Of a stretch of DNA of 64,000 nucleotides, positions 1 to 64,000 are shown piece after piece (position 1 is the first letter of the stretch; each line of letters starts with the position of its first letter). The translations under genes and the position numbers were made by a program. A model generated the notes under the pieces. It was not told where the DNA came from and did not search any database. It saw only the letters and a list, made by a program, of their open reading frames with translations. The stretch is from Bilabrum cf. latius. Taxonomy: Eukaryota. Location: NCBI GenBank assembly GCA_965178125.1, contig OZ237744.1, positions 496,001 through 560,000 on the forward strand, in the 5' to 3' direction.

Positions 1-1077
1 ACGGAAGCTCCTCTGCCAAAGTAGCCCCTGCATTGCCTCGAACAGCGCGAGCTCGGTGCCGTTGAACGGAACCCACTGCCGTGAGAGCAGGATGAGGGGA
101 TCATTTTGAGTTGGACCGGTTCCTTGAAGACGGAGGGCACCGCCAGCAGCATGCGCACCGCTGCCAGATGCACGCGCCGCAGTCCCAAGATACCCGGTCG
201 TGTTGTAGTGCGTCGCACCAAGCAGCACGGGCTGCCCGAATACAGAATCTGAGACATTTGGATACGTGTGCTGCGCTGCCTAGTAGACGGCATCCATGTG
301 CCGGATCAGTGCTCCGCTCGAAACCTCTACGAAGAGCTCAACTTGCCGACTCCGCGCGGCAGGGGTAGGCATCTACACTACGGTAGCATCGACGAATATC
401 CCGATCGATGGCTCGTTACCAGGGGTTGGTACGAAGGTTACGTTGGCATCAAGCAGCATGGTTTTGTTAGTGTCCATCCAGCCGGTGATGCTGATTGTAG
501 AGAACGCGTACCCAAACCGCATACTACGGTTGAATGAGTCGTCTTGCGGACTGGATTGAAGACCTGCCTCGCACCAGGTGCTTCCACTGCGGGTGATTTC
601 TGCAAACTCCCCGCACATGCCTGCGTGCAAATCGGAATCAGCAGTTGCACTTTGCCAGCTCAAGGTCACCTGTCCGAAACCTTGCTGCTCGTGGGCAAAC
701 TTGCCGATCCTGTCGATGCTGCTGATTAGATGCGGTCCACCCTCGTCAGAACGGACTTCCATACCACCGAACTAGTTCGCAACAAGGACCAGGCGCTCGT
801 TCGCTACCTGGAACCACTGCTCGTTCGGAAGCTTGACTAGTTCGTTGATACTCGACAACGAAGCTTTTCTTCGAGGTACGATAGACGTGGGCCCGAGCTG
901 CACACCATGATGCGAATAAATAGGAGCATATGAGTCATCATCAAGGGCCCAATCACCGAAGGATCCGCCACCAAACGAGTAGTTCGAATCTTGGGCAACC
1001 GCGAATGCACGGACAGATCCTGACACAGCAGCAAATACCACAAAGACGGTTGAAATTGTGCAATACTGATAAATCAT
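1..1077 (-). CDS. Secreted protein, 5' part only (runs off the window start); possibly glycoside hydrolase/phosphorylase-like
   Basis: ATG at 1077, then a hydrophobic signal-like segment (STVFVVFAAVSGSVRAFA). The frame stays open to base 1 when TAGs at 772, 373 and ~280 are read through, with no TAA/TGA. The family guess rests only on recalled resemblance of FGGGSFGDW and QVANERLVLVANQFGGMEVRSDEGGP to bacterial GH94/GH36-type N-termini and is weak. Confidence 0.7.
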
Positions 1078-1176
1078 GTTTTTAATCAGCAGAAGTAGTC
1101 GGCCCAATCAGGAATACTAGGTAGGCTATGCAACGAAGTGCAGTTTTGAGCATAAGACCATGTAATATCATGTAGG

Positions 1177-1184
1177 TATATATA
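1177..1184 (+). promoter_or_regulatory. TATA-like element upstream of the tRNA gene
   Basis: TATATATA about 26-33 nt upstream of the tRNA 5' end, the usual position for TBP-assisted Pol III genes. Confidence 0.4.
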
Positions 1185-1209
1185 CGCATTTATGACCCTT
1201 TCGACAAGC

Positions 1210-1281: not shown

Positions 1282-1282
1282 A

Positions 1283-1595: not shown

Positions 1596-4500
1596 TCACG
1601 AGTACTCCTCGTCGATCTCGACCCGCACAGGCGACAAGTCCCAGTCCACCACGTCTTCTCCATGCGAGCTACCGTCCGGTCCTTGCTCTGCAGCCGCCGC
1701 AGACACCTCCGGGGGCACTCCGAACTGCCCCACGCTCGCTGCGTGCCTGCTTCGCAAGGAGTCCTCCGGCCCGGCATGGCCGCGGCCCTCCTAAACCTTG
1801 CTGTCGTGCCCTGACTCTCCCCGCGCTCTGCGGCTGTCACCTTCGGCCAATGCTCGGTCTCGGTCGTCGGTCCCCGCAGATGCACCCGCCGCTTCCAGCG
1901 CATTCCACAGCGCCACGTACCTTGCAGCAAGCGATTTCTCTAGCCCTGACAGCGCCAGCACCCCAGATCGGACACGGGCACGACTCCGCGCCAGCTCCAC
2001 AGCTCGTGCGAGCATGCCAGCCGGGTCCGATTCGGGACGAATGGACGAAGACGATCCACCCGAGCTTGCGACAGAGGGCCCCCCGCCTGACCCCCCCGAC
2101 ACCAGCCCGCCGATTGCAGGGGGCACAAGGACGCGCATGTCTGCGGCAGGCAGCCTCCTCGATAGCTCACCCCTCGCGATGCGCAGCGCCACAGCGCAGT
2201 CCGCTGCACCCTCGGGACCCTCCCGCTCGCAGTGCGAGAGCAACGCAGACAGGACCCCCCTCCAGCAGTCGAGCCTCGGCTCGAGCCCGAACGCGATCTC
2301 GAGGGCGGCGGCCGGGCTGCGCAAGCCCCTCGGCCCGCCGAGCAGCAGGAACGCAGCCTCCCACTCTTTGCCCTGTCTGAACAGCGACACAGCCTCGAGC
2401 GCGATCCGTGCCTGCACCGCCCCACGCAAGCCAAGGGCCTCCCGCTTGCTAGAAATAAACGCGAGAAGCGGCCCAGCTGCCGACATGGGCATGCACCAAA
2501 GCAGGGTCTGCAGCAGGTCAGACACGATCAAGACAGCGGGATTAGTCCGCTATTTCGGCGCGCCCTCTCCACTCGTCGGGGTGCTCGAGCGGGCATTCTC
2601 CCCAGCTTTAGCCGCACCAGTTGGCGACCGGCCATCTTCGGCGGGGTTGGGATCGCTGGAGCTTGTGCCGTCTTCTTGCACGGATGCTGCACACTAGGCA
2701 AGGAGGGCGGGGTGGATCCCGTGGTCGGGCAGAGACGTGCGCGCTGCTAGTCGCATGGCCCACGATGACCGAGAGCTGCCGAGGGTGGCGGCTGCCCGAA
2801 TCGCAACGCTCCTCGCGATGTTGTTCTCGGCCGACGGGGGCTCCTCGGGCTCTGGATCCTGTCGTGGCTACCCTGCTGTCGCTGCCTGTGCCCCACCTGG
2901 AGCTGTTCCACCGCCTGCGCCGCTCGCAGACCTCACTGGTAGTCCCGTTCGTCTATTCTGCTATCCTACATCGACATTGCTGGCGCTCTTGTGAGCAAAC
3001 ATTGCGACCAAAGCGGCTGGACCCGCCTCTGCCACAGCTTCCACGATGGCAGTGGCGAGGATGAGAGGGGCTGCGGCATTCCGATGCGGTGCTTCGGGGC
3101 CAGCTGCGTGACCAGTATCTTTGCAGCAGTGGCGAGCCAGGGCGATGAGCAGCACGGCCAGCTGCTGGTCCAGCCGGGCCGCATCGAAGTCCGTGACTGC
3201 TGCTGCCCTACTAGCCCGTTGCTGCGCGACATCGCCAAGCAGTCTAGCAAGAGCGCACGCTGCATGCGCATCCCTCGCTTCGTCCAGCGCCATGGTGAAC
3301 TGGGCAGGCGTCAAAACGCGAGCGCTGGGGTGGACCAGGTTCGCCTCGAAGGCAGACTCGTGAAGATTGGTCGCATGCTCCGCAGAGCTCCCGCTCGGCA
3401 GTTCTTCGAGACTGGGCAGGCCGATGGGGCTGCCGCTGCCTTGACCCGGCCGGAGAAAACCGCCCTTCTCTTCCCTCTCTACATCGCTAGGGCGACGAGA
3501 GCCGTCCGTGTTTGCAGCACCATCGCCCGCTTGCCTCGCTTGCATTGTACGAGGCAGCTGCCCGGATTGACCCGTGTCAGACTCCTCGTGTCTTGCACTG
3601 AACGAATGCTGCCAGTGGTTCGAACCGCCGTCCCCTGCCGCGTCGATCTATGGCTCGGCGGCGTACTCCCCAGTATCTTGGGTGGCGAACCGATCCGATT
3701 CCATGGGAGCCACTGGCGAGCCTAGCACGCCCCGGTGGCGCATCTTCTGCCGCCTCGCCAAGTCGTCCTTGGCCTATCGTTCGAGGCGGCGGCCCGACGC
3801 CATTCGCATCTCGTCCAATAGCTGCTGCTCGAGCTCCCACGGGTAGGGTGGTAGGTAGGGCGGTAGCGGGGCGGAATCGTCTTTGGTCTCTTGCAGCAGC
3901 TCACGCATGGATGGAGTCTCAACCGGAGCTTTCCGGCCCCTGCTGTACCCCCCGAGGTCGTCCTCTTTGCTGTCTTGCTCCAACCTAGTTCTTCTGAATC
4001 GAGACGAAGCTGCGCTACCTGGTGTGGCCCGCGACTTTGCCGCCGATTGAATGCCCCTACGGCGGGGGGTCAGCGCTGCAGGCGTACCCGTGGGTGTCGA
4101 CGCCCCCTATCCGATGCCTCTCGCCGCCGCCGGAGAGCCCAACGTGGCACCGAGCATCTGTTGCTTCGGTGTCGCGCTTGACTCCAGATCCAACGGGTGC
4201 TGCACCAGCATCGAAGGCGCCGCAATTTCAAGGCTGTCTTCGAAGAACGGAAGCTGGTTCCAGTTCAAGCTTGTTTCTCGAACGGGCGAATGTTCGTGAT
4301 TGCGTGAATCGCTGCCGCTATTTGGAATGTCTGCCAGCTCCGTCTCGACGCTATCATCGTCCGAGTCCCCAAACATCTCGTGGACGAAGGCTTCGTGCTG
4401 AACGACATCATCTTCCGTGCCATTGCATGCTCCCGATGCATCGATGGTCCCGTTGGCCATAACCGCAGCCGGATCGCCAAGGCGCTGCGACAAGTCGTCC

Positions 4501-7500
4501 ACGCTATCCCCTGCTTCTGTATCTTCCTTGACCTCTTCAGAGGCCGCGAGGGTCGCTCTGGTTGCATCTAGTCGGACGAAGGCGCCCTCTTGCCGTAAAA
4601 ACTCCCTGGATGCGTCCGCATGCCTGGCGACGGCTCTCTTTATCGTAAGGCTGTCGACCTGTCGGGCCTTGATGGCCCGCACCCACACTTGTCTAGCCTG
4701 CCTGCACACGCGACCAACGCGCCCGTTGTCGTCCCAAGACTCGACTCCCCGAGATAACGGGCCGGTCCTGTCGATCCGAAAGCGCGGCGGACTATGCAAG
4801 CCAACCTTGCCACGTGCGGCCTAAAGACACACCACCAGCCGGGCGCGGTCAGCTGCGATGACACCAAGAGGGGTGTCAATCGCGGGCACGTCCGGGCCAA
4901 ATCCAGCGATGCTCGCTATCTTCTAGATGTGCTGCTGGTGCTGCTTGTCGATGAGGTCAACCAGCCCATCACTAGTAGTGCTGGCCTGCCGCAGCATGGT
5001 CCCGATGACAAGCCACGCGAGGGTGCCCCCCGTGTGGTGCGCGGAGAGAGCCTCCACCACAGGTGGCAATCCGGTCGATCCAGACCTGACGACTCCTTCC
5101 CCGAGGAAATCCCACAGGGATGGTGCGAGCAGCCCAGCAACTGCCATTGCCACCTGCCCATCAGATGTGGAACGAAGGCCAGCGCAAAGCGAGACAGCGT
5201 CATGATATGCCACAGCAGAGCGCGCGTCGGATCCAGTTGCCTCTAGGCGCGAAAGCAAAGCCGCCACCGCGAGCCCAATGAGTCCTGCTGGGCCAAAGTG
5301 CAGCTTACAAGCCGTTCTGGCGATATCGGAACCGAACAGCCCGCTGCTAAAGTCAGAAGCGGCACCGTCACTCCTCTGACGGGCAGGCGAAGCGGCTGGG
5401 GCATCTCTGGCAACGTCATCAATGATAGATGCGTCGCCATCAACCGATCGCGACGCCTCTGGAATCCTATGATTGCCGGAAGGCTCCAGCATCTGTTTCC
5501 ACAGCACAAGAATGGAGCGAATTCCGATTTCAAGCGCTTTCCTGGTCCAACCCCTCAATGATGGGCTGCCAAGTATGACGTGGCACAATGCAAGCGGGTG
5601 TACCCGAAGCGAAATATGCACGATTTGCGCAGCCAGGCTAACCGGTGCGAACCTGCGTGGATCGCCGGTCGGGTTCGCTAGCGAGTTCTTGGACGCTGCC
5701 CCAGATGCAATCGAGGCCACGGTCACCCATTGGACCGCTCTGGCCACATCCGCCTTGGCTTCCTGCGGCGCAGGCCCCAGCCAGCAGTACTCCAGCGACC
5801 GCTGAGCTTCAAACACGCTCCGTGATCCAGCGCCAACGATGCCAGCCAGCAGAACCAGACGCTCCTGGGGAGACATGTTGCTAGCCGCACCAGAAATCAG
5901 TCGGCGCTCGCTGCCCTAGGACTGCAGAGCCATTGGCCTCGACGTCTTGGAGCCCGACGCACTCCTTGGCGAACCGCCTCTGCGCACCTCCGACTGCAGG
6001 GACGGGGTGCCCACCGGAGTCTGGCGCGATGAGCTGCGGCGACTCTATTTCTGCCGGCCGTTCTTGCTATCGCGACTGCTTCCCCTGCTGTCATGCTGCT
6101 TGCTTCCACTAGTGGCGGATCCCTCTTCTACCAGTCGCTGCATCGTGGTGCTGCCTCGCGAGGCTCTCGCTTCGCGTGGCTGCAGGGCAGCAGCCTCCTC
6201 CAGTGCCTCCACGTCCACTTGCGGCCCAGGATCAGGGCGCGTGATCTTACCCACGCACTCGCTTAGGTGCATCCACATGCTCTTTCGCAGCCTACACAGT
6301 CGGTTTACGTACGTCAGCCCGTCAGAGCAAGCCTCCAGAGACGTCATCACGCTTGGATCCCCAGCGGCCGCCTTGCCAGAGTCCACACAATGGCAAAGAT
6401 ACGACACGGCATCAAGCACGCCTCGTCTCGACAGCTGTGACATGGACCTTTCGATGAGGCAAAGCCCCTACACGAGCGCCTGCAGCGCCACCTCATACGG
6501 CACGGTGCCTGCAGTTCGACGGCTCGGACTACGTCGGCTCCGGCCGCCCACTCTGGACTGGCGCCTGCCAGCGTGCCGAAGGAGCGCACTTGCGACGTCC
6601 GAGTCAGATCGCGTAGAAAACGCAAGTAACCTGGACCGAGGCGACGTCTCTTGCTACGTGGTTTCCAGATTGGCAGCTGCTTCAACGGCTGTGTGCGCAT
6701 CTGCAGTCCGGGTGGATTGATCACGAAGAGCACCAGCCGTGGGCTCTCGAGCCGCATTTAGCGATTCCGGTGGTGTATCGCCGATGGCAGCTGCGCGTGT
6801 CCGCCTGGCCCGTTCGAAGTCTCCCTCTTGTAGCGCCTTGAGAACATCCAAGGCATCGTTCATGTCAAGGCCGTCGAGCATGTTTCGGGACTCGGCTAGC
6901 GTCGCGGCATGCCTGCTCAGGACTACATCGCGATCTGCCCTGGGCAGCTTGAGCCTTGCCACGTCCATAGTGGCCAGCAGACGACCCACAGACTCGGAGT
7001 CTTCGCCGCCATGATACAGCATCACGCCACCAAGGGTGTTGGAAGGCGTGCTAAAGTTCGGTGCCATCGATGAGGAAGCTGGTGACGACTCACTGGAATC
7101 GTTTCCGCCGTGTGTTGGTGAAGCCGCCCGCAGCGCGCTCTACGCCTGGTCCAAACTGGATCTAGCTGCATCAAGTAGCGACAGATCGGCCGCAGCCTCG
7201 CCAAAATGTCGCTCATCCGCAGCCCCACTCCCAACGAGAGCGAGAGGGGCGATCCGCGTGACTGATGTGCGGACACCCGAGGCAACCCTGTGCACTGCAA
7301 GCAGGCATGGCCTGCTCTTGAAGTGCGTGCCAGCCGCAAGGCAAGAAGAGGGCAACGAGTACACTTCCAGCGTTCCCAGCGGAGAGAGCGAGTAGGCCGT
7401 CATGCCGCACACGGCAGAATGGATGGAACCGAACTACCACTGCATCGAGTAGGCAGAGCTGGGCGCCTGCAGCGACGCCATTCGCATGTCCACGGCTGCG

Positions 7501-9773
7501 CGTTGATCCTTTATGCGTCGCAATGCGGTCAATGTGGCAGTGTCCGGGCTTTGACTAGACTGCTTTCCCTCCTGCGCAGCCGTCGGGTGCTTGTTGGCAG
7601 CTAGCGGAAAGAGTGCAGTGCGCGGATCCGCAAAGTGGACCTTGTTGCGGAGATTGTATACCCTGGCACTTGCCTGCATCGATGACCAGGGCAGACTCAA
7701 TCCGGGGATTCCTAGCAGTCTGGCTGCTTGGACTAGGGGCAGAATCTCAACGACGGAGGGGGCAGTGCTGCGAGCTGCCCTATCTCTGGCATACTCCACC
7801 TCTGCCACAGCACGGGTATACAGCGCACGCGCCTCGTCGCTGCCACCGTGACTAGAACCTCGTACACTGGGGAGCTTGCCCGCTCGCAATAGCTCCAATG
7901 GCGTCGGCAGCTCTGACCCGCATGTTGTCAGCGTTCGGCCGACGGTACCCTCAGGTGAGAGAAAGAACCTGTCGTTGTGGCTGCTCCGCAGCTGGGAGTT
8001 GGCACGGGATGCTGGCGCGGTAGCAGGCACAGGACTAGGGGGCATGTTCGCGCTTCTCTGTGAGATGGGCTTCCTCCATGCCCTCATCCACCTCCGCACA
8101 CGAGCCTGCCACTACCTAGCAGCGACCCTACCATCCAGGGCAAGGAAGGTGCAGCTATCCATTGTGGCGGGCCGCAGTGGTGACCCAGCCATACCGGGCT
8201 GACCACTCTTTTCATCGATGGAGAGGTTAGAATTCCTGCTATGCGCTCTCGCTGGATCCCTGGCTGGCCCCACGTTCGGACTAGCGGGTGGAAACCCAGC
8301 ACTGCTCGCACGAGCCACCCTGAATTGCTCCGACTAGGTACGCCGCTCGTCTTCTTCCGCTTCCTTGGTCTCTCCTTTGACAAGCTCAGCCTGTTCGCCT
8401 CGAAAACTGTACACGTGCAAGCCGTGCGAAGTTCCAATCACGAGTCGGAGCGGACACGAGTCGTACACGGTGTCGTTTAGCACCTCCTGCCGGACAGCCG
8501 GATCTCGCGCCCCCGAGGCGGCAGGTCCAAGAACCGGGGTGTCCTGTGAGTTTCCATCGCCATCTATCATACCAATTGCCCCTTGACGGGCCTGTTGCCT
8601 AACTTGGCGATAGTCTGCTGCTCCAAGCTCACCAGCGCCTGCCCCCGATAGTCCGGAGGCGGGTCCATCGAGCTTGCAGCTCCGTATCGGTTCATCCGGC
8701 CGGGTTACCTTACGGAACATGCACCACAAACGGCCATCCATCGGGTTTGACAGCCGGCTGCCAGCCGCTGGTATGAGCTGGCAGCCGGCCGCCTCCACAG
8801 CTCCAAAGAGCTCGACGGCACGCTGCCCTGCAGCTATTTCAGATACGGCCGCGCCGGGCTCCGCCCTAGCCACTGCGTCCAGAATGACTGTTGATCGACC
8901 TAACGACTATACCGGCATACCATCGGGTGAGAAGAGCGCTGTTCGGGTGGCACGCGTGACAAAGTGCTCTTCCGATTGCTGCTGCTCGTTGCCAGCAGCA
9001 CCACTTGGGGGTAACCAGCCAGCCACATGCTGCTGTTCCAACGCATCCGAAGCCAGTTCCCGCTGCGATAGACCCAGGCCTGCCTAATCAATGGCACTAT
9101 CTAGGTCCGCAAGTGCGCCGGGTCGCTCAGGCTCTGCCATGTGCCGTTGGGGCTCCTGCCGCGCACCGACTCCAGGCACAGGGTGTCCTTGTCCCGGTGA
9201 CTCGCCTGCCGCGCCTGTCCACGATCGCCCAGGGCCGCCGGGCCCCTTAGAGGAGTACTTTGACACTGGCCACAGCTTCACTCGCAGCAGTACGCACTCT
9301 CTTTCGGAGCTGATCGCAAGGTGCGATGCATACAAACTCAGCAGGGTGATTGGGCCTTGAAACGTCGACAAGTACAAAGTGGCCAGCAGCTCAATGGGAC
9401 CTCGTTCGCACGAGAACATGAGAAGGGCATTACCATCAAAAACGCACAGCCTGCCGGTTACTGGACAAGCGGTAATTGCGGGAAGCTCGCGGCAGGACGG
9501 TAGCGGCAGCTCGTACTGCAACAAGTGAGGCCTGTCGACATCTTCCGAACTCGACCCCACACCCAGGTGCGAAGCCCAATTGTGGAACACAACTAAACAA
9601 TACGTTTCATCCGCCCTCATCTCCAGTACTCCGAGCGCACCCAGTGCTGGAATTGCCAAGATCGTCTTTGCGAATCCCTTGGTTGGGATGCTGCCAACAG
9701 ATCCCCCTTCTGGAGTACAAATCCGAATCAGTGTGTCTGCAATATGAATAAGCTTGAAATTTGTACGAGACAT
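1596..9773 (-). CDS. HPS3: Very large (~2,725 aa) protein with an HPS3-like (BLOC-2 subunit) N-terminal domain; possible extra 5' exon at ~9873-10061
   Basis: Thirteen track ORFs from 9084-9773 down to 1791-2531 share one frame and are separated only by ~20 TAGs. The first TGA is at 1596-1598. The N-terminal segments LVVFHNW, ELPL...ITACPVTGRLCVFDGNALLMFS and HLAISSERECVLLRV resemble human HPS3 (LRAYVNW, EMPL...[36 protein letters not shown]) as recalled. The ORF is solid; the name is moderately supported. Confidence 0.65.
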
Positions 9774-51500: not shown

Positions 51501-53276
51501 CACCCGCTGACTGCTGCTGTTAAGGCAATCGAGAGCAGCATCGTCCGCCCCGGGCCTGCCTGTGACGTGAACGTGATGGTCCTGGAGGCGGTGCCACAGG
51601 CTAGCACTATTCCCAGCAGCGGTGACAACGGCTCTCCGAGTTAGGCAACGCCACGCATGCGACGATCACGGAATGGTGGAGCACCGCGCTCGAGCACCTC
51701 TGCTGCGCGCGGCAGTCAGGGTCAGCGTGCTTCCTCTCGCTCTCGCGGGCGGCCCGAGGGCGTGGCGCAGGGAACACAAGCTGCCGCGTCGGCGGGCATT
51801 CGATGGTCCTGTCACCCGCTTGGCGGAAGCAGCAGCTCTGTGCACCAGCATGAGCAGCTGCCTTGCACTGCTGATAGTCTGCTCGAGGCAGCCGAGCAAG
51901 CTGCTGACCGTGCTTCGCGGGGCGACGTCGTCTGCGTGACTGGTTCCGCGATTCATCATGCGATCAATGAGGCAGCTCGGGAGCAGCGGGGCTGGAACCA
52001 TAGAAGGCCGAGAGCTGCAGGCATCGGGAGACAGAGGCGCGCAATGGGCGACACGAGCTGGAGTCCCGATGCAGGTCCCTGGTCGCAAGCTATCGGAAGG
52101 CTCTGCCAGACCACACCCGTATTCGCGCGTGTGTCGCCGCAGGAGAAGGAGGCAATTGTCAGGGTGCTGCGAGGTCTTGGAAGGAGGGTAGCGTACTGCG
52201 GGGACGGGACCAACGACGTGGGTGCGCTGGTCGCCGCAGATGTCGGGTTAGGTGTCATGGCAGACCTGAAGGATCGCAACGACCAGTCAGGTGCTAGCCG
52301 GCCGAATCCGTACAAGAGCCCAAGGTTCGCGCAGATGGCACTCGCGGCTCTGTGGCGGAGTGTGGTGTGGGGGGCGGGGCAAGACAGTCCGTACATCAAA
52401 AAGCTGCTGCTCCGCTGCACGGCACTTGAGGCTAGCACGCTTCGAGCCGAGCTTCGAGCCTCTTGGGGCACGCGCCTGTCGCAGTCTCTCGCCATTCAGA
52501 CAAGGCTGCAAGAAGTGAAGCACAACATGCTACAGTACGCGGATGCAAGCGGTGCGTCCTCAGGCCAGGGCGTGTCCTAGGCGGCGCCTTTCGTGTCCAA
52601 GCAGCCCGGCATTCGTGGACTGGTGTCGCTTCTAGAGTGCGGCAGGCTCGCTCAAGGAATGGCGCAGCAGCAGCTGGCCTTCTCCACTGTGCTGGGCTTG
52701 CTGCCGACCGTAGTGGCGTGCGCAGGATTCATCGCTGGTGCGGAAATCACGACCCAGAGCTAGATGCCGCTGGTGGGATGCATTTTCCTGAGCGTTCTCC
52801 TGGGTGGTCCCATGCTCGGGCCAAGCCTGGCTGAGCTGGGGCCCGGCCGGCCTTCACGGGTTGCTGCGGGAGGCCAGTCCATTGTGGTGTCGGTGGGCAT
52901 CGTGGCTATTGGCGGCATGGCGGCGATTCTCTTTGCGCTGGGCAGCAGCTTGGGGCAGAGCCAAATCGCCGACTGCCTCTCCTACATGCTCGTCACGCAG
53001 TTGCTCCAAGCGCTCGCCCTGACGAGCGCTGGCTCGCCTTCCGTCGAGTCGCCTTGGAGGGATACCGCTGCCGGTACGATCGTTGGATTTGCCTTGCTGC
53101 TATCGAGTGCCAGGGCATTCGCAACGATGGGGTGGCTGCCTGGCTTCTTAGAATCGCTCGTGGGATTCGCGTCGGTCGGGGTATCTGCGTCGTCGGAGCA
53201 GCTGCTTGCCGTCTCTAGCGTTGGAGGGTGGATCGGATGCCTTTTTTGGTCCGTTCTAGTTCAGGCGTTGTACTAA
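48513..53276 (+). CDS. P5-type P-type ATPase, divergent, with low-complexity insertions
   Basis: VDEAILTGES, RTGF, CFDKTGTLT, ACHSL, GDPMEKA, KGAPE, MVTGDHPLTA, FARVSPQEK, CGDGTNDVGAL and AAPF all lie in one frame broken only by ~10 TAGs; ends at TAA. Confidence 0.92.
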
Positions 53277-53443: not shown

Positions 53444-56400
53444 ATGGCTGCTTCCGGCGGATCCAAAGAGAATCAATTTGATTATTCTAGTGCTATCAGA
53501 TCCGTAAGGTGTATTGAAGATCAAGTGTGTCAAATGGACCTAGCACCGCGTCGTTCTCAAGCTTTGATTCTGCCGTCAAGTCGACTTTAGCGCAGTCTGG
53601 TGGAATAGAGGTGCCAGCGAGCGATGAAAGCCGAGAATATGCATCTAAGGTACTTTCAAATGGAATGACTGTACTTGTTGTGTCTGATCCCCTGGCTGTT
53701 CGTGCCGCGGCGGCTGTTTCAGTTCGGGCTGGCTCGTACGATGAGCCGCAATAGATCCCTGGACTAGCGCACTTTTTGGAGCACATGTGCTTCATGGGAT
53801 CTGATAAGGTAAGTTTACGATTGAGGCGGGTAGTTCATGTGTTTGTGCCCTGTGGTCATTCTCGCCGGGCAAGCCATGCGTAGTTGCTCCGCGTGTGTTC
53901 ATTTCGCAGTACCCCGACGAAGAGGGCTGGCACAAATGGATCGCAGCCAATGGAGGCATGAGCAATGCGTTTACAGCCGCAGAAGAGACCCGGTACTTTT
54001 TCGAAGTGAAGGCTACCCAGCTTGAAGAGGCCCTGGACCGATTCGCAGGATTCTTCACGTCTCCTCTTCTCAAAGAGGACGGGGCGGCGCGGGAGCTTCT
54101 CGCGGTCGATTCGGAGCACGCAAAGAACAAACAGTCTGACATGTGGCGAGAGATGCAGCTGGATCGGTCCACCTCTGATCCGAAGCACGTGCACAACCGC
54201 TTCGCCACTGGCGACAGCAAGACTCTTCGGGACCTACCGGTGCAAGAGGGCGTGGACGTGCGGAAGGCTCTGCTGGAGTATCACCAGCGCAACTACCATG
54301 CCGGCAGAATGTACGCGGTCGTGGTGGGCACGGAGCCCACCGATCGCCTCCTCGACATGGCCTCCAGGCTGTTCGAGGCCGTCAAGAAGGAGGGGGAGGA
54401 GAAGACCGTGTACCCCTCCGATCCTTACGGGCCGGAGCGTACTGGCATAGTGCAGTACATGCTGCCGCTGCAGGAGACTCGCAGACTCAACCTCAAGTGG
54501 GCGCTTCCCCCAGCCAAGAAGCACTGGAGGTCGAAGCCGCTCAGCCTGCTCAGCCACCTCATCGGTCACGAGACCAAGGGGTCTGTGGCGAACTACCTGA
54601 GGGAGAAAGGGTGGTCTGTGGGTCTCATGTGCGGGCAACTAGACAGCGCGGAGAGCCTCTCCTCCTTCGGGGTAATCATCGACGTGAGACTTGTGCGCCG
54701 AAGCAGACGCGTCGTCGCTGCGCTGTGCATTGCGTATCTCTCTATGTCGTTTGGCGACCGAGTGCATACTAAGTGTGCCCTTCTATTCAATATCATCCAT
54801 TTATCGCAGTTGTCGGAGGACGGCTTAGTGCACTGGAAGGAGTGTGCCGCCGCAGTCTTCGCCTACGTGCGCATGCTGCTTCGCGAGGGTCCCCAGAAGT
54901 GGGTCTTTGATGAGGTGGCCGCTGTGAACGCCATGCAGGTCAGGTACAAGTCGAAGCAAGGCGCGTCCAGCTACGCCGCTAGCCTAGCGGGCAAGCTCAA
55001 GTTCTACCCGCCGGAGAAATGCGTGACCCACGACACCCTCCTCTCCGAGTGGGACCCGGACACGTACACCGACTACCTGTCCAGGCTCACCCCGGAGAGC
55101 TGCAGGATCAGGATCCAGGCCCAGGAGGTGGACAACAAGTGCACAGAGGAGGAGCGCTGGTACGGGACCAAGTACGGGCAGCGGGCCTACTCGGACGACG
55201 AGAAGGCCGCATTCTCGACCGACACTGAGGAGCTTGTTGCCGAGCTCGCGCTGCCCGCGCCGAATCGCTACATTGCCACGGATTTCACGCTGAGGTGCGA
55301 CGAGGAGCCAGGCATGCAGCGAGAGAGGAAGGAACTTGAGGCTGCCAGCAAGTCAGGGAAGGAAGCAGAAGGTGCAGACGAAAGCAAGGAGGAAGAGGGC
55401 AGCGGCAGCGATCCAGCCAGCGGGGCGGGCGCCGGAGCTGGTGCTGGCGGGGACAAGGACGATGCTGAGCCCAACATTTCATGTGATGGCGTGGCTCGAG
55501 TGGGTCGGCACCGCATGGTCGAGCCCAAGATCCTCTTTGACAACGACAGGGCCTTCATCCTGTACCACACCGATGGCTGGTTTGGCGAACCGCGCGTGGC
55601 CGTTGAGGCGCGCCTGTACTCTGCGAATGCCATGGCGACCACGCCAAGGGAGGCAGTGCTCGCTGACATCTTCGTCAAGCTGGCGGTGCACAAGCTGGAA
55701 GACAAGACATACGACGCCGAGCTCGCCAGGCTCAGCTTCAGCCTTTCCTCTCGCCCCGGCGGCCTGGCCTTCCAGCTGTACGGGTTCTCGCAGAAGGCGA
55801 AGCAGCTGCTGGATACCATCCTTTCGGAGCTGAAAACTATGAGCTTCACCGACGACGAATTCGAGAGGCAGCGCAAGCACTTCGAGCAGAAATGCTCTGC
55901 CTACGATTTCGCGCTGCCCATCCGCATCGCCATGTCCGAGGCGAGCGTGGCCACGCAGACAGGCCCCTGGTCCTCGCCCGATAAGCGCAGGGAGGCCGCA
56001 ACTCTGGAAGGGAGTGCCGGGGCGGAGCTGTGCAGGGACTGGGCCAAGCGCTTCTTCCAGCGGACCCACGTGAGAGCGTACGTGCACGGCAACGTCAACA
56101 AAGAAGAGGCTGCTGCCCTAGGAGAAGCTCTGGCCGCGCCCTTCGGCGGTATGCCGGGTGACGCTACCGGTGACGCTGCGGCTGGTGGCGCTGCATCAGC
56201 CGGATCAGAGCAGAGCCTTCCTGTGCTGGCCGAGCTCCTTCGCTCCCCGATCCTGCCTCGGTGCATCAGCCTTCCGCATGGCGCCTTCATTCGAATCAAG
56301 CACGGTTCGTTCAATGAGGGCGGTGAGGATAATGCAGCAGCTATCGTGTCGGTCTGCCTAGGCCCAGAGACGGACGAGGCAGCGGCCATCGCAAAGGTGC

Positions 56401-57251
56401 TGTCGCAGCTGATGTAGCCAGAGGCGTTCGGCATGTTGCGGACCAGGGAGAGCCTGGGCTACATCGTGCACACGTTCGACCAGTCGCTCTCCGAGGTGCA
56501 GTTCCTCACCGTCGCGGTGCAGAGCACCCGGCTGCAGAGCGTGCAGCTGGAGCGCCGCATCGAAGCTTTCCTGGACAAATTTGCCTCTCTGCTTGAGGGC
56601 AAGTCCGAAGAGGATGTCGCGCAAACCAGGGAGGCCTGCGTGAGCTCTGCCGTGGAGGAGCAGCGGAGCCTCTCGGGTGAAGCATCCGGCATTTTTGGCG
56701 AGATCGTGACTTTAGACCTGGGATTTGATAGGACCGCTCGCCAGGTGCGAGCCATGCGAGCCCTGGACAAGGCAGTGCTTGTGGAGCACTACAACAAGTA
56801 CGTGAGGCCTGGTGCCACGGCTCGCCGCGCCGTGTCTGTGCTCGTAGAGGCGGGCAAGCCGTAGGAGAACACGGCAGAGAAGACCCTCACCCATCAGGCA
56901 CCCCCTTGCGGCCCGATCCTTGCACCGCATGCCGTGCTTCCGTTCCTCGTTGCTGGGCAAGCAGTACCCGAGGACGTGGTGGCCGCCCCACTGCGCGCTG
57001 CCGAGGCTCCGCAGCCACTGCCTGAAATAGACGCTGTTGAGGATGAAGATAAGGATGGGGAACAAGGGGATGGCGGAGCAGCGGAAGCGCCCGAGCGCAC
57101 GCTCTGCAGCGAGGTGGGGCTCAAGTCGAGGTCTATGCCCATCGTGGAGATCGAGGGTGACCGCGAGCTGCTGCGGGCGTCGCTGCCCACAGAGCCGAGG
57201 TCCGCAGCTCTTCAGCTTGCTGCGTTCAGGGCAAAGCAGAAGACAGCTTGA
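53444..57251 (+). CDS. IDE: Insulysin/nardilysin-like M16A metallopeptidase (introns 53504-53595, 53809-53909, probable 54684-54809)
   Basis: GLAHFLEHMCFMGSDK|YPDE (inverted zincin HxxEH across an intron), GGMSNAFT, AVDSEH, LIGHE, ERWYGTKY and LRTRESLGYIV. TAGs at 53752, 56415 and 56862; ends at TGA. Confidence 0.93.
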
Positions 57252-58790: not shown

Positions 58791-61700
58791 TCATGCCGTG
58801 CCGGGCCGGATCTGCACCTCTAGCACGCCACCGCCCCACAGACCTGCATACACGCTGCATGAGAGCTATGAAAAGTAGGCCTGCGCCTGTCCGTTGGCAC
58901 TGCTAGCGCCGGTCCAACCCTCGCCACCGCTACCCCCATCCCTGCCCGCCGCCCCACCCTGAGAGCATGCACCCCTTTGCAGCCTCCACGGCATGTTGCC
59001 TGGCATGGCACCCTCCAATACATTCACCCACTGCTTGGTGTCGGTGGCAATCGCGTCGCCGGGGTTCTAACTAGCAGGAGCGGTCCGAGCCACTGGAGCT
59101 TCGAGACCTGTCCCAGCTGCTGCGAGATCCAGCGCGAACAGCCCCTGGGTTGATTCTGGCGTGGAGTTCACGTCACCCGCCATCGAAGACACGAGCAGCT
59201 TTGCAACACTCCCACCACTCATATCCCCGAATTCCACCACGTGCATGGCAGGTGCCGTTGCATCAACGAGAGGAGAGTCGAGGCTCACCCAGCTCGGACC
59301 ATCACGTGTCCCAAGATGCCCATCGACCTGAAGCCTAGGGTCAGCGATTCCGTGCATGACATCGACATGCATATCGGTCCTCCAGACAGAGCCATCGGTG
59401 CACGCAACAAAGAAACTGCAGTTTGCGCTGGCCATACCAGTCCATTCCCTGACCTGCGTGGGTGGATGGCACAGTCCTGACACTGACTGTGGGCTGACCT
59501 AGTCTGTACCAGGTCCTCGTGTGCGTGGTGGTCGAACACCACGCATGGTCGAGCCATATCGCCTTGCAGGTCGTCCTGACAGCCCACTGTTAGCTATCTA
59601 CCAACTCAAGTTGTCTTCTGAGCGCCCTGTGGAAGACACGGCAGGCGGCAGCCCCACCTCCACTGGCTGCGGCCCACTGCCTGTGAAGCCATCGAAGTAG
59701 ATCCAAGAAGACAGCTTTCCAGTCTTCAAGCTTATGCCGGCTACATACCCAATGTCGTCTATCGGGTTATAAACGCTCGGCACCTGTGTGTTCGGGCTGC
59801 CGCACGTGCTGCCTGTGGAACTCTTCCCTGGCACGCTCTTCGTGTTCAGGAAGGGCATCCAGAAATCCACTGCCAGTACCGCAGCTGCCGGTGATTGACC
59901 CCACGAATCCGGATCGAGCGGCGACTTTGCCGTGAATATGCCCATGTCTAGGACTCCTGCTGGCGATGCACCGCCAATGCACGGCAGCTGTCCAGGTTGC
60001 GGGGCAGCGGGCGGCTGGCTGCAGTTCACGTAGGTCCCAGCCGACATCACTGCAAATGTGGTATTCTTCCATTCTACTCGCGTGCCTTGCATTGCCTTGC
60101 CAAGGAGGACCACTGGCTGCCTAGCATCCATATTCGTTTCTTCTTCCTTAGCATTGCGTGCCATGTGGCTGTGCTGCTTCTTGCTAGCGATCCCGCGATT
60201 CGAAGACCTTCTGATGAACGAAGATGCCTGTCCAACCGGGATGGCCACAAGTGCTGGGGCAGCCTGTGCCCCAGCGTCGAAGGATCCCGCGAGTGCCCAA
60301 CCCGCCGAGGCTGCATCTTCCTTGGGCGGAAGCGCCAGGGACATGGGTGCCAATGGGTAGGCGCTGTGCGGAGACACTGATTCGGTCGCTGTGTAGTTGC
60401 TGCCAACTTGAATGGCCTGCTAGGGTCTACTCGTGCTACTTGCCTCCTCCGTGCTGACAGCTTCGTCTCTATGGGAATGAGACTCGCGACGGGGCAATTG
60501 TCTTGCATACTTGCTCAATGGTCTATCTAGCTCCCACACGGACTGCAGTCCAGCCAAACCCACGGTGCTGCTGACCATCACGGAAGGTCCTCCGAGTCCT
60601 CTCGAAACCTCAGCCCCTTGTCCTGGCCGGTTGCCACCCACTGCTTGGCCAGAGGAAGGCACGACGGCGAGGCCGATCGCATCGGCGGCCGAGATACCGT
60701 TATCAAACTAATACCAGGTCTGTCCGCCGTCCCAGGAGGCATGCAGCCCGCCACCAGGGGAGCCAGCCAGGAGACCCGGGGCCTCCTGTGATCTGGACCA
60801 CGACTCAGGGGCCATGGCCATGCTGAACACAGAGACAGGGAAAGAGTCCACTCTGGTGCTATAGTTTCCGTTTCCATCGCAAGACCAGAGACCGAACTGC
60901 TTCATTGTCGGGAACATTGGGTTCGCAGTGCTGCCAACGAGCAGCTTGGTGCAGGCGGGATCCGACGAATTACCGCAGCCCGGCTTGGCCATTGCAACCA
61001 AGCGGGTCCACAGTCCGGAAATAGGCAGCTTAGCATTTGTGTAGGGGTTGAGAATGACTTGGAGGACCCCTGGCGCCAGCGATGGGCTCGCCCTGACAAC
61101 CACACCGTCCCCATACCCGTAGTACAACCCACTGGGCATCCATGCAATGCCCGTAACTGGAGCATAGAATCCATTTGGCGTCAACTCGTAAATGTGCGTT
61201 GCTGGCATCGCATGCAGGTCTTCAGGATCGCTCTATACGGCGGATAGAACATAAAGCCTGCCAGTCGCTGATCCAACGATGACTACTTCTTGGTCCACTG
61301 AGCCAACTGCTGGCACCATCACTCGCTTCACGATGGTATAACTTGTGTCGTTATTCTTGCTGCAGGGTAAGCACGGCACAGTCTCCCAGGGTGTGTCATA
61401 CGATGCCTCATTTGTTGCGTGCCACATGATCCCACCGTTCGTGGCGCCCCAAGCGTCGCTAGTCGTTGCACGGGCAGACAGGGCGGCCGAACTGACAATG
61501 ATGCTATCTTTGCGAGCATTTCCAAGCTGTTGCCATCTCGTTCCATCTTTCGAAATGAGAACGCCACGACCAAAAGGAGACGACGCTAGCCAGACCTCAC
61601 TGCTGCCATCTCCTCGCGATACGATTGAGTATGCCGACCAATTTATAGGTGTAGATCGAATAAGGTTCCAGTCTGAACCATTGATGCTCTCATACATTCC

Positions 61701-61859
61701 CGACGCGTCGTCGCCGCTTGCAAGCCAGCGGCCAGGCCTTCGGACGTCGCCGTATACTGCTGAAATGAAGCCACCTTTCGGACCAATTTGTCGCCATGAG
61801 GCGTCACAGTATGCATATGATACCAAGACTACCGCTATACTTATGCTTTGCCAGGGCAT
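58791..61859 (-). CDS. Secreted beta-propeller protein with BNR/Asp-box repeats (GH74/sortilin-like fold, ~1,020 aa)
   Basis: Signal-like MPWQSISIAVVLVSYAYC, WRQIGPKGG, Asp-boxes ESINGSDW, ISKDGTRW and ASWDGGQTW, and C-terminal YAGLWGGGV. Five fragments join across TAG to TGA 58791. Confidence 0.8.
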
Positions 61860-62051
61860 GGCTTCAGGTATGAGCAATGTTCTATAGTCTAGACGTCGCG
61901 CCGGCTGGGTTGGGCCGGCTCCGGGTACCAGTGGATGGATTCGGCACAATGTCACAACATGTTTTGCGTCGTGCTGAGATAAGGTGCAACCGTGCGCAAT
62001 CGCGACACTACATGAAATGCAGGCGTGCCTCACTTCAATACATCCAGGACT

Positions 62052-64000
62052 TCAGGACATCCAGGACGGCCTCGTCCCAACGCCGAGCATCCGCTGCCGG
62101 CTGGCTTGCAGGTTCGCCCTGACTGCATCGGCCCTCGTCATTTCGCTGCCCCCGGCAACACCAATGCCAGCCATACCTTTCTTCCCATCGCTTGATCTTG
62201 CTAGATCCGATAGCCCTCCAGAACCTCTTGGACCACTGCCCCTGCCTGACACGCCCCCATCCCCATGCACGCCCCTGCCTGACACGCCCCCATCCCCATG
62301 CACGCCCCTGCCTGACACGCCCCCATCCCCATGCACGCCCCTGCCTGACACGCCCCCATCCCCATACACGCCCCTGCCTGACTCGCCCCCATCCCCATGC
62401 ACGCCCCTGCCTGACACGCCCCCATCCCCATGCACGCCCCTGCCTGACACGCCCCCATCCCCATGCACGCCCCTGCCTGACACGCCCCCATCCCCATGCA
62501 CGCCCCTGCCTGACCCGCCCCCATCCCCATGCACGCCCCTGCCTGACACGCCCCCATCCCCATGCACGCCCCTGCCTGACACGCCCCCATCCCCATGCAC
62601 GCCCCTGCCTGACCCGCCCCCATCCCCATACACAGCCCTGCCTGACACGCCCCCATCCCCATACACAGCCCTGCCTGACACGCCCCCATCCCCATACACA
62701 GCCCTGCCTGACCCACGGCTCCAACCATCTGCACCTCGACCTCGTCCCACGGTCGCCCTCTTTGGTGACGTCACTGCGACAGGCCTCATGCTTCCCTCAA
62801 GAGCATAGGCATGGCGTGCAGGCGACCTCAGGGTCACGGCGCTACGATCCGCACCACTGGCGATACCTCGCCCCTCCTTGGCACTAGTACCAGTTGAGGC
62901 CGCTGCTGCCCTAGACGTTGAGCGGGTACCGGACCTGGGAGCAGCGCGAGACCCTGAAGCCGCAGCAGTGAGACTTAAGGCGGGTGTCTAAAGCTCTACG
63001 TGTGTGCTGCTATCAGGGGCGAGGCGCTGCCCCGCCTCGTCCATGGCATCCCACGCGCAGCTCCTGTCTCTTCCGTACTCTACCATCTCCCGAAACCACG
63101 CGCGCTCCCGCAGGGCAAGCCCCAGCTCCTCCGATGTGGCATCCCCAACCGCAACTCGGGCGTCGATAGCATCCCCAAACCGGTCGCTTGCAAGTGAATC
63201 TGTTCCGCCAGAGAGACGCGGCCCAGCACCCCTGCCCCCACCGGCCCTGGCAGCTCGCGTTGAATCCGCAACCGCAGGCCTCTCGCCCTCAACAACCCCT
63301 TTGATCCACGATCCGAGGGCATGGCGCGCCATGTCGCACGCAGAAATGGGATCAAACATGCCTTGAGTCCCTCCCATGGAGCCGCCAGCCGCAGCCCCCA
63401 TCCGGCCCCTTGCACGGCTGCCTCCACCATCGCTGCGACTAGCGTCAGCTGGCGACAACGACATCACCTTGCGCATGCACAAGGGGCACAGGTGCAAGGA
63501 AGCTGGTAATTCCAGTGAAGCATCAACAGGACCGCTGCCAGGCGCAGCCATTGATAGCAGACAGTCTCTGCACTCTGTGCACTGGCCCAGACCCGCTATC
63601 TCGGCGACAAGCAGTCTGGCCACCAGGTGAAATAAGTGCAATAAACGGTGCCCGTACCCCTCGCCTTCCGATTTGCCCTTACTTGCATGAGGAAAGAATC
63701 CTTTCAAGTGAGCCAAAATGATGGTTGGATCTTTCGGTCGCCCCGGTGAAACTACAGCTACGCTGTGCGTGCTTGTGCTGAACGCACTCTGACCACGAAA
63801 CGGAATGCCAGACAGCACCAGCACAGCGTCACATGTTGCCAGATCAATTGATCGCCCAATAGCATCAATAAGAGGCCAGAATCCGCGAGAAACCCCGAAT
63901 CGCTTCCCGTCTTGCTGCTTTGAGGCTGCGTCGCATGATTGTAGCTTCGCTGCGATCCCAATGCTGCCAATCAGACGCTACATTGTCCGGACCGGCTCCA
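62052..64000 (-). CDS. 3' part of a protein with a degenerate archaemetzincin (M54)-like domain and a Gly-rich repeat tail; starts beyond the window
   Basis: The frame is open from the window end through TAGs (~63980, 62988) to TGA 62052. The pattern FRGQS..VAVVSPGR..GLGQC..C..LHLCPLCMRKV follows archaemetzincin order but lacks HExxHxxGxxH. Confidence 0.6.
62239..62712. repeat. 33-bp tandem minisatellite, ~14.4 copies, coding (GRGVHGDGGVS)n on the minus strand
   Basis: Unit CCCCTGCCTGACACGCCCCCATCCCCATGCACG with a few variants. The units are head to tail with no spacers. Confidence 0.95.

What the first reader, a model, noticed from the sequence alone, without database searches (positions are those of the whole stretch)
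1..64000. Nuclear genetic code with TAG = Gln while TAA and TGA remain stops
Seen: nearly every gene is broken by in-frame TAG and never by TAA or TGA. One example is the 8.2-kb frame 1596-9773 with ~20 TAGs. Every complete gene I could trace ends in TGA or TAA (TAA at 20822, 43061, 53274). TAGs fall inside essential domains (kinase 17837, RT, P5 ATPase, M16). Known: eukaryotic nuclear reassignments usually move UAA and UAG together; UAG-only Gln matches NCBI table 15 and has been reported in very few eukaryotes, for example the fornicate Iotanema spirale. Inference: this organism needs a tRNA-Gln(CUA) and an eRF1 that ignores UAG but still reads UAA/UGA. It may be an independent origin in a GC-rich flagellate lineage; the taxon cannot be fixed from this window.
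Basis: partly seen in the sequence, partly recalled or inferred. Interest (0 to 1): 0.96.

Follow-up and report, generated by a model that had tools for sequence, protein, structure and literature searches.

The report
Nuclear code reading TAG as glutamine
This GC-rich protist genome piece reads the stop codon TAG as the amino acid glutamine while keeping TAA and TGA as stops, a rare kind of genetic code change seen so far in only a handful of eukaryote lineages.

Summary
With TAG read as sense, ORFs of 500 aa or more rise from 5 to 15, the longest being 2725 aa. Reading TAA as sense adds almost nothing. Seventeen stop-to-stop frames (17,465 codons) hold 106 in-frame TAGs. They hold TAA (3) and TGA (13) only as the last codon.

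TAG means glutamine. It sits at columns that are Gln in 120 of 120 glutamate-synthase homologues. Over 16 usable columns, Gln beats the next residue by 21 nats. A relative on a metagenome contig (L001, 88.6% identical) has four other TAGs in the same gene, and all four align to CAG here.

Spliced transcript contigs carry 15 of the TAGs unchanged, so neither editing nor splicing removes them. TAA behaves as a stop.

The only taxonomic clue is the GltB tree, which puts the window in a clade with bicosoecid stramenopiles. The expected tRNA-Gln(CUA) and an altered eRF1 could not be looked for, because no genome is held.

Nine literature searches found this code in Iotanema and some ciliates but not in a stramenopile. 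My verdict is a new member of a known kind of code variant.

The parts
1596..9773 (-). 2725-codon open frame with no family match, 20 in-frame TAGs, ending in TGA
10134..14627 (-). 1497-codon frame with 7 TAGs, ending in TGA. Six of the TAGs lie inside a spliced RNA contig that shows no differences from the window.
17501..20824 (+). Ser/Thr protein kinase gene with 4 TAGs (17837, 19397, 19823, 20318) and a TAA stop at 20822-20824. The RNA contig 17348-20855 ends 31 nt after the TAA.
20924..26242 (-). Last exon of a ferredoxin-type glutamate synthase (GltB) gene with 4 TAGs, ending in TGA. Intron at 26061-26238.
21788..21790 (-). TAG at GltB aa 1485, a column that is Gln in 120 of 120 homologues and CAG in the relative L001
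25232..25234 (-). TAG at GltB aa 337, which is Gln in the 13 closest homologues and in 52 of 120 overall
39361..42018 (+). Reverse-transcriptase frame of a retroelement with 18 TAGs (2% of codons), ending in TGA
40954..40956 (+). TAG at RT aa 532, where Gln is the commonest aligned residue (86 hits; next is T with 13)
41720..43063 (+). 447-codon frame of the same element with 4 TAGs and a TAA stop at 43061-43063
45655..48171 (-). RluA-type pseudouridine synthase gene with 3 TAGs. The TAG at 47497-47499 (aa 225) aligns to Gln of E. coli RluC.
48018..53276 (+). Very divergent P-type ATPase gene (best hits are P5-type at 21% identity) with 11 TAGs and a TAA stop at 53274-53276
53808..57251 (+). 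M16 (insulysin-like) peptidase gene with 2 TAGs at variable columns, ending in TGA
27259..28788 (+). 509-codon frame with 6 TAGs, two of which (27796, 27829) lie in the spliced-out intron 27765-27854
30409..33807 (+). 1132-codon frame with 9 TAGs, ending in TGA
58791..62051 (-). 1086-codon frame with 7 TAGs, ending in TGA

Best explanation
The window is nuclear DNA of a GC-rich (60%) microbial eukaryote with short GT..AG introns. Its cytosolic translation reads UAG as glutamine and ends proteins at UGA (13 of 16 complete frames) or UAA (3 of 16). This is the assignment of NCBI table 15. UAG is a minor Gln codon: 106 of 757 Gln-type codons (14%). It is scarcer in conserved genes with high GC3 and commonest in a retroelement.

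Shown here: UAG is a sense codon in mature mRNA, it means Gln, there is no internal UAA or UGA, and a related organism shares the trait.

Inferred from what is known of other such codes (Panek et al. 2017, PMC5304391, passages seen): a tRNA-Gln with anticodon CUA, probably derived from tRNA-Gln(CUG), decodes UAG but not UAA, and eRF1 has lost or weakened its recognition of UAG while still reading UAA and UGA.
For: 1. Open frames. With TAG as sense, ORFs of 500 aa or more rise from 5 to 15 (up to 2725 aa). TAA as sense gives 6.
2. Codon counts. 106 in-frame TAGs; TAA and TGA occur only as the last codon in 17,465 codons.
3. Identity of the residue.
- GltB TAG aa 1485 sits in a column that is Q in 120 of 120 homologues. 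For aa 337, Q is found in 13 of the 13 closest.
- RT aa 532 aligns to Q in 86 hits, the next residue being T with 13. Paralogue fragments show Q at 506, 523, 532, 611, 750 and 773.
- Pseudouridine synthase aa 225 aligns to Q of RluC.
- Summed log-odds over 16 usable of 28 TAG columns: Q +17.2, next best E -4.0. All 13 control codons gave their true residue.
4. A relative. L001 (88.6% aa identity, 76.5% nt identity) has 4 in-frame TAGs and no TAA or TGA in 1054 codons. All 4 align to CAG in the window. One of them is a column with Q in 120 of 120 homologues. The window's TAG at aa 1485 is CAG in L001.
5. RNA.
- Contigs of runs X5, X6 and X7 (2 studies) skip 7 stretches that have GT..AG ends in the gene's orientation. 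The contig of X1 does not skip them.
- Depth in X5-X7 changes from gene to gene.
- X5 contigs cover 15 TAGs with 0 other letters. The only 4 differing places in the 20 kb are not at TAGs.
6. TAA as a stop.
- Reading TAA through adds only 1-69 codons at frame edges and never joins two long frames.
- With the A/G bias of CAA/CAG (0.278) or TTA/TTG (0.157), 41 or 20 internal TAAs would be expected. None is seen.
- The kinase RNA contig ends 31 nt after its TAA, whereas the next TGA in frame lies 69 codons further on.
7. Public short proteins P0182, P0192 and P0212 (95-100% identical to the RT frame) end exactly before TAGs 611, 345 and 198. That is what standard-code gene calling would produce.
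Against: - No tRNA-Gln(CUA) and no eRF1 could be examined. The window's only tRNA is tRNA-Glu(CUC), and no genome is held.
- There is no peptide evidence.
- The zero count of internal TAA is partly circular, because the frames were defined by TAA and TGA. Only one of the three TAA stops has an RNA contig end beside it.
- Many TAG sites are uninformative: both M16 sites, 2 of 4 GltB sites (in insertions), 10 of 18 RT sites, and the kinase site (Q in 1 of 5 alignments shown).
- 5 of the 14 complete frames that carry TAG have 32 or fewer codons after their last TAG. About 2.5 would be expected, so occasional use of TAG as a terminator is not excluded.
- The tool labels X5 'RNA? (probably DNA)' and X6 and X7 'RNA?'. 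That they derive from RNA is my inference from the spliced joints.
- The sample is one 64-kb window plus one 3-kb contig.
Confidence: 0.85

Rival explanations
1. Both UAA and UAG mean Gln (table 6, as in many ciliates, hexamitids and ulvophytes), and UAA is simply too rare in this GC-rich genome to show up in 64 kb.
For: TAA is the rarest of the three triplets in the window: 202 + 220 on the two strands, against 528 + 483 for TAG. UAA and UAG usually change together (PMC5304391 and PMC11687900, passages seen).
Against: - CAA makes up 27.8% of CAR codons and TTA 15.7% of TTR codons, so 20-41 internal TAAs would be expected beside 106 TAGs. None is seen, giving a Poisson P of 3e-9 or lower.
- Reading TAA through never merges long frames.
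- Three frames end in TAA. For the kinase, the RNA contig stops 31 nt after it.
- L001 has no TAA in 1054 codons.
Confidence: 0.05
2. UAG has two meanings. It is Gln inside genes but also ends translation in some genes, depending on context, as in the stop/sense codes of Condylostoma, karyorelict ciliates or UAA in Blastocrithidia.
For: 5 of the 14 complete frames that carry TAG have only 6-32 codons between the last TAG and the TGA or TAA, where about 2.5 would be expected. 3' UTRs are very short, 31-158 nt in 5 genes, a feature that goes with position-dependent termination in such codes (recalled from the literature, not tested here).
Against: No frame needs TAG as its terminator. In the 5 genes with RNA contigs, a TGA or TAA lies 31-158 nt before the contig end. 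The excess of short tails is not significant (binomial P about 0.1, my calculation).
Confidence: 0.07
3. The TAGs are not translated as Gln. They would be artefacts, pseudogene lesions, intron sequence or RNA-editing sites, or they would encode another residue (Glu, Leu, Ser, Tyr, Lys or pyrrolysine).
For: Two of the 106 TAGs do lie in an intron. The retroelement with 18 TAGs could in principle be a decayed copy. UAG encodes Leu, Ser or Glu in other eukaryotes (PMC11687900).
Against: - The same letters appear in the contigs of 4 runs from 3 studies.
- Spliced RNA contigs keep 15 TAGs unedited.
- There is no in-frame TAA or TGA in any of these frames, including the 885-codon RT frame.
- Gln beats every other residue by at least 21 nats.
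- TAG and CAG exchange between the two relatives at 5 sites.
Confidence: 0.03

Closest known systems
Iotanema spirale (Fornicata) nuclear code: UAG = Gln, UAA the main stop (Panek et al. 2017, PMC5304391; abstract and passages seen)
   Same: The same assignment: UAG alone is reassigned to Gln while UAA is kept as a terminator. The same predicted mechanism: a tRNA-Gln(CUA) plus an eRF1 that reads UAG poorly.
   Different: - Unrelated lineage. It is an anaerobic metamonad, whereas here the GltB gene groups with bicosoecid stramenopiles.
- Here UGA is the main stop (13 of 16 frames) and the genome is 60% GC.
- Iotanema's eRF1 carries T32G in the GTS motif. The eRF1 of this organism was not available.
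Phyllopharyngean ciliates and Protocruzia tuzeti with UAG = Gln (NCBI table 15) (McGowan et al. 2024, PMC11687900; Discussion passages seen)
   Same: UAG, but not UAA, is reassigned to Gln. These are independent and recent origins.
   Different: Those are ciliates, the group most prone to code change. This window shows no ciliate features (it is GC-rich, with a retroelement and 84-178 nt introns), and its GltB is closest to stramenopile sequences.
Table 6 type codes (UAR = Gln) of Tetrahymena and Paramecium, hexamitid diplomonads, ulvophycean algae and Amoeboaphelidium (listed in PMC11687900)
   Same: A stop codon becomes Gln, probably through a one-base anticodon change in a tRNA-Gln.
   Different: In those codes UAA is sense too. 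Here UAA was tested and behaves as a stop.
Rhizarian exLh (UAG = Leu) and Scotinosphaera (UAG = Ser) (PMC5304391; PMC11687900)
   Same: UAG is uncoupled from UAA in a nuclear genome outside the ciliates.
   Different: A different amino acid. Here Gln beats Leu and Ser clearly.

Membership tests
UAG-only to Gln nuclear code (NCBI table 15 assignment) | In-frame UAG inside real protein-coding genes and present in mature mRNA | tested here: met
   There are 106 in-frame TAGs in 15 of 17 frames, including GltB, the kinase, M16, the pseudouridine synthase and the RT. Fifteen TAGs lie in spliced RNA contigs with 0 differences.
UAG-only to Gln nuclear code (NCBI table 15 assignment) | UAG aligns with glutamine at conserved columns of orthologues | tested here: met
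   Q in 120 of 120 homologues at GltB aa 1485, and likewise at the column of one L001 TAG (aa 1048). Log-odds are Q +17.2 against E -4.0 over 16 columns, with all 13 control codons correct. TAG and CAG exchange at 5 sites between the window and L001.
UAG-only to Gln nuclear code (NCBI table 15 assignment) | UAA is not used as a sense codon and serves as a terminator | tested here: met
   No internal TAA in 17,465 codons, where 20-41 would be expected. Three frames end in TAA. Read-through adds only 1-69 codons. The kinase RNA contig ends 31 nt after its TAA. The sample is small: one window.
UAG-only to Gln nuclear code (NCBI table 15 assignment) | UGA is not used as a sense codon and serves as a terminator | tested here: met
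   13 of 16 complete frames end in TGA and none has an internal TGA. With TGA read as sense, the longest ORF stays at 869 aa.
UAG-only to Gln nuclear code (NCBI table 15 assignment) | A tRNA-Gln with anticodon CUA is encoded in the nuclear genome | not testable with these tools
   No genome is held. The window holds only tRNA-Glu(CUC). The collection scan that might have reached it was already used.
UAG-only to Gln nuclear code (NCBI table 15 assignment) | eRF1 N-domain changes that weaken UAG recognition (GTS, NIKS, YxCxxxF, positions 55, 69, 70) | not testable with these tools
UAG-only to Gln nuclear code (NCBI table 15 assignment) | Peptides with Gln at UAG positions | not testable with these tools
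   No proteomic data are available.
UAR to Gln code (NCBI table 6) | In-frame UAA at Gln positions alongside UAG | tested here: not met
   No internal TAA, against 106 TAGs. None in L001 either.
Ambiguous stop/sense codes (Condylostoma type) | The reassigned codon also ends genes, near the mRNA 3' end | tested here: inconclusive
   No frame requires TAG as its stop. However, 5 of 14 frames have 32 or fewer codons after the last TAG, and 3' UTRs are only 31-158 nt long.
Stramenopiles / Bicosoecida (taxonomic placement) | Multi-gene or 18S phylogeny placing the organism in the group | tested here: inconclusive
   Only one gene was informative. GltB falls in a 15-row clade (SH-aLRT 100) with Cafeteria roenbergensis and Bicosoecida sp. 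ms1, on a long branch of its own together with L001 (a quick tree, as the careful search did not finish). M16 and the ATPase gave no close named relatives. There is no rRNA in the window.

The most novel reading that the evidence does not exclude
This would be the first nuclear genetic-code change in a stramenopile: a bicosoecid-related lineage of heterotrophic flagellates, with at least two species-level members (the window's organism and the one behind L001), that independently reassigned UAG alone to Gln in a GC-rich genome where UGA is the main stop. Both DNA and RNA data already exist for it. That could make it a tractable non-ciliate model for how eRF1 and a tRNA-Gln(CUA) uncouple UAG from UAA.
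Probability: 0.4. Interest if true: 0.75.

Novelty: new member of a known kind. Interest (0 to 1): 0.62.

Why it matters
UAA and UAG almost always change meaning together. Cases where only UAG is reassigned are the natural experiments showing that the two can be uncoupled, and how eRF1 tells them apart. The passages I read name only a few such nuclear lineages:
- Iotanema (Gln)
- Protocruzia (Gln)
- two phyllopharyngean ciliate lineages (Gln)
- rhizarian exLh (Leu)
- Scotinosphaera (Ser)

A further origin, outside the ciliates and metamonads and in a GC-rich genome, would add an independent data point for theories of codon capture and eRF1 evolution.

There is also a practical consequence. Public protein sets appear to hold gene fragments from this organism, or from a close relative, that were cut at TAG by standard-code gene calling. 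Its annotation, and any phylogenomic or metagenomic binning that uses it, should be redone with table 15.

Tried and rejected
- Whole-genome search for tRNAs: no genome is held for this window.
- ARAGORN and Rfam on the window found only tRNA-Glu(CUC), so they have no bearing on tRNA-Gln(CUA).
- The look-up of sequencing runs: no RNA holder is listed on record. The RNA nature of X5-X7 had to be inferred from spliced joints.
- M16 peptidase homologues (55 hits, best 33% identity): both TAG sites fall in variable columns and are uninformative.
- P-type ATPase homologues: the best hit is 21% identical over 35% of the query. This is too divergent to read the 11 TAG sites, and I made no alignment.
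- Kinase TAG aa 113: a variable site, Q in 1 of 5 alignments shown (MARK1), L in SIK3 and A in CIPK23.
- Protein Atlas look-up of the saccharopine-dehydrogenase-like protein for a taxonomic hint returned mostly bacterial clusters and was no help.
- Earlier-findings look-ups by place, by words and by sequence returned nothing relevant.
- Nine literature searches and passage checks in PMC13768787, PMC11412368, PMC12560768 and bioRxiv 2024.05.15.594285 found no report of UAG = Gln in a stramenopile or bicosoecid. The library lacks most subscription journals, and supplements were closed, so this does not prove that nothing is in print.
- The careful maximum-likelihood tree did not finish within the time limit, so only the quick tree is reported.
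- Rejected readings: sequencing error, pseudogenes, editing and intron-only TAGs (see the rival explanations).
Full report
**The observation**

The window is 60% GC throughout. Under the standard stops it holds only 5 ORFs of 500 aa or more, 3096 aa in all.
- Reading TAG as sense gives 15 such ORFs (17,111 aa). The longest are 2725, 1772, 1752 and 1497 aa.
- Reading TAA as sense gives 6 (3603 aa).
- Reading TGA as sense gives 15, but none is longer than 869 aa, which is what random merging would produce.

I took 17 long stop-to-stop frames (17,465 codons). They contain 106 in-frame TAGs. TAA occurs 3 times and TGA 13 times, always as the terminal codon. The two other reading phases of the same DNA hold 300 TAG, 111 TAA and 608 TGA.

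Fifteen of the 17 frames carry at least one TAG. An EF-hand-like frame (14969-15988) and a saccharopine-dehydrogenase-like frame (33938-35323) carry none.

**The genes**

Pfam finds the following:
- a protein kinase (17501-20824, +);
- a ferredoxin-type glutamate synthase with all four domains (20924-26242, -);
- a P-type ATPase (48018-53276, +);
- a reverse transcriptase (39361-42018, +);
- an RluA-type pseudouridine synthase (45655-48171, -);
- an M16 insulysin-like peptidase (53808-57251, +).

The other long frames match no family. The only RNA gene is tRNA-Glu(CUC) at 1210-1281. No whole genome is held for this window.

**Are the TAGs real, and are they in the mRNA?**

Public runs were searched with 17501-26242, and the contigs of four of them were laid on 10001-30000.

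X1 covers the stretch with one contig of even depth (13.2) and no joints at the intron sites, so it behaves as genomic DNA.

X5, X6 and X7 come from two studies. The tool labels X5 'RNA? (probably DNA)' and X6 and X7 'RNA?'. I infer that all three derive from RNA, for three reasons:
- Their contigs begin and end at gene borders.
- Their depth changes from gene to gene (12.6 to 86.2 in X5).
- They skip seven stretches of 84-178 nt, each of which has GT..AG ends in the orientation of the gene: 14435-14518, 14578-14667, 17006-17092, 26061-26238 and 26466-26594 on the minus strand, and 27765-27854 and 29185-29357 on the plus strand.

X5 contigs cover 10098-14434, 17348-20855, 20858-26060 and 27855-28946 with 0 other letters. 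Those spans hold 6, 4, 4 and 1 TAGs respectively, 15 in all (one search gives the coordinates). The only four differing places reported in the 20 kb (18987, 27020, 27024, 27041) are not at TAG codons.

The TAGs are therefore neither read errors, nor edited to CAG, nor spliced out. There is one exception: TAGs 27796 and 27829 lie in the in-frame intron 27765-27854. The figure of 106 slightly overcounts coding TAGs.

**What TAG encodes**

*GltB.* It has 120 listed homologues, the best being 57-61% identical. In a MAFFT alignment:
- TAG at aa 1485 (motif HGVAG-Q-SFGAF) falls in a column that is Q in 120 of 120.
- TAG at aa 337 is Q in the 13 closest homologues and in 52 of 120 overall.
- TAGs at aa 800 and 1415 lie in lineage-specific insertions and are uninformative.

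*RT frame.* It was searched against 1.84 billion representatives, giving 372 hits, of which the best 150 were used. Q is the commonest residue aligned to TAG 532 (86 hits; next is T with 13) and to TAG 453 (38 hits). Closer paralogue fragments have Q at 506, 523, 532, 611, 750 and 773.

*Pseudouridine synthase.* TAG aa 225 aligns to Q of E. coli RluC in both PDB hits, and TAG aa 223 aligns to H.

*Uninformative sites.* The two M16 sites and the kinase site. The ATPase is too divergent to use.

*Likelihood.* A small Codetta-like calculation summed log-odds over homologue columns. Of 28 TAG sites, 16 had at least 30 aligned residues. Gln scored +17.2 nats, and the next best residues were Glu at -4.0 and Arg at -6.1. 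The same procedure returned the correct residue for all 13 control codon sets.

**A relative with the same code**

A scan of metagenome contigs with GltB returned one close relative. L001 is 3165 nt long, 88.6% identical in protein and 76.5% in DNA over 1053 aligned codons. The other 79 loci are about 45% identical and look bacterial.

L001 reads open for 1054 codons with four TAGs and no TAA or TGA.
- All four TAGs align to CAG in the window.
- One of them, in the motif NSKIK-Q-VASAR, is a column with Q in 120 of 120 homologues.
- Conversely, the window's TAG at aa 1485 is CAG in L001.

TAG and CAG therefore exchange like synonymous codons between two organisms, and the trait is shared by at least two species-level lineages.

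**Are TAA and TGA still stops?**

Thirteen of the 16 complete frames end in TGA and three in TAA.

If TAA is read through, frames gain only 1-69 codons at their edges, and no two long frames merge.

If TAA were Gln with the A/G preference seen for CAA/CAG (27.8% A) or even TTA/TTG (15.7%), 41 or 20 internal TAAs would be expected beside 106 TAGs. None is seen (Poisson P 2e-18 and 3e-9). This test is partly circular, because the frames were defined by TAA and TGA. The failure of long frames to merge is the non-circular part of the argument.

In the five genes with RNA contigs, the contig ends 31-158 nt after the TGA or TAA. For the TAA-terminated kinase the contig ends 31 nt after the stop, while the next in-frame TGA is 69 codons further on, inside the convergent GltB gene.

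**A caveat on dual use**

Five of the 14 complete frames that carry TAG have only 6-32 codons after their last TAG. About 2.5 would be expected from the average spacing, so the excess is not significant. I cannot exclude that UAG also terminates some genes. Nothing requires it.

**Mechanism**

Shown:
- UAG is a sense codon for Gln.
- It makes up about 14% of Gln-type codons (106 of 757).
- It is rarer in conserved, GC3-rich genes (GltB 4 in 1772 codons, M16 2 in 1147) and commonest in the retroelement (18 in 885).

Inferred: the organism needs a tRNA that pairs with UAG but not UAA, and this leaves anticodon CUA. The simplest origin is a one-base change in a duplicated tRNA-Gln(CUG). It also needs an eRF1 that no longer competes at UAG. 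This is the reasoning of Panek et al. 2017 for Iotanema, whose eRF1 carries T32G in the GTS motif (PMC5304391, passages seen; its supplementary eRF1 figure was not available to me). Neither molecule could be examined here.

**Which organism?**

- GltB is closest to unnamed environmental sequences, to Cafeteria roenbergensis (57%) and to Bicosoecida sp. ms1 (57%).
- In a quick IQ-TREE, the window and L001 are sisters (support 100) on a long branch inside a 15-row clade (support 100) that holds both bicosoecids. The bacterial sequences form the other half of the tree. The careful search did not finish.
- The 13 other members of that clade are stored as full-length proteins of 1477-1824 aa. This suggests they have no in-frame TAG in this gene.
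- M16 and the ATPase gave no close named relative.

Placement near bicosoecid stramenopiles is therefore a single-gene lead, not a result.

**Comparison with what is known**

The Discussion of McGowan et al. 2024 (PMC11687900, passages seen) lists these cases of UAG uncoupled from UAA:
- UAG-only to Gln in Iotanema spirale, Protocruzia tuzeti and two phyllopharyngean ciliate lineages;
- UAG to Leu in rhizarian exLh and some ciliates;
- UAG to Ser in Scotinosphaera.

The assignment found here is the same as NCBI table 15. The lineage appears to be different.

Nine full-text searches and four passage checks found no report of such a code in a stramenopile or bicosoecid. The library omits most subscription journals, and the underlying data date from 2025, so a report may exist or be in preparation.

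**Verdict**

This is a new member of a known kind of code variant. It is of real interest to people who study genetic-code evolution, and it matters for annotating this genome. It is not a new category of code. Interest 0.62.

Noticed in passing
window 37416-43063 (+): A retroelement with three overlapping long frames: 736 aa with no family match, 885 aa with RVT_1, and 447 aa with no match. It uses TAG far more often than cellular genes do (18 in 885 codons for the RT frame). Public databases hold short paralogue fragments 57-100% identical to it, and several of them stop at the same TAG positions. So the element is multi-copy, and some TAGs are conserved between copies.
   Followed up: partly
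window 62238-62712 (-), inside frame 62052-63998: A tandem array of 14.4 copies of a 33-nt unit (97% matches). It encodes an 11-residue repeat, G-R-G-V-H-G-D-G-G-V-S, in a protein with no family match.
   Followed up: no
window 20822-20926: The kinase and GltB genes converge, with only about 100 nt between their stop codons. Their RNA contigs abut at 20855/20858. 3' UTRs in the five genes examined are only 31-158 nt long.
   Followed up: partly
window 54650-54850 (+), M16 frame aa ~290-345: The M16 peptidase frame contains a stretch that looks unlike its homologues and may be an intron read through in frame. No RNA contigs were laid on this part.
   Followed up: no
window 26900-27090: The contigs of X1 and X5 differ from the window here. 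There are small deletions, a 2-nt insertion behind 27027 in both runs, a 31-nt skip in X1, and an 'opposite strands' joint at 27085. This may be a repeat or hairpin in the intergenic region that assembles in different ways.
   Followed up: no
window 1210-1281 (+): tRNA-Glu(CUC), the only RNA gene found in the window. It lies between two minus-strand protein genes.
   Followed up: no
window 33938-35756 (-): A two-exon saccharopine-dehydrogenase-like gene (exons about 35370-35756 and 33938-35323) with high GC3 (0.75) and no TAG at all. This fits TAG being avoided in some genes.
   Followed up: no
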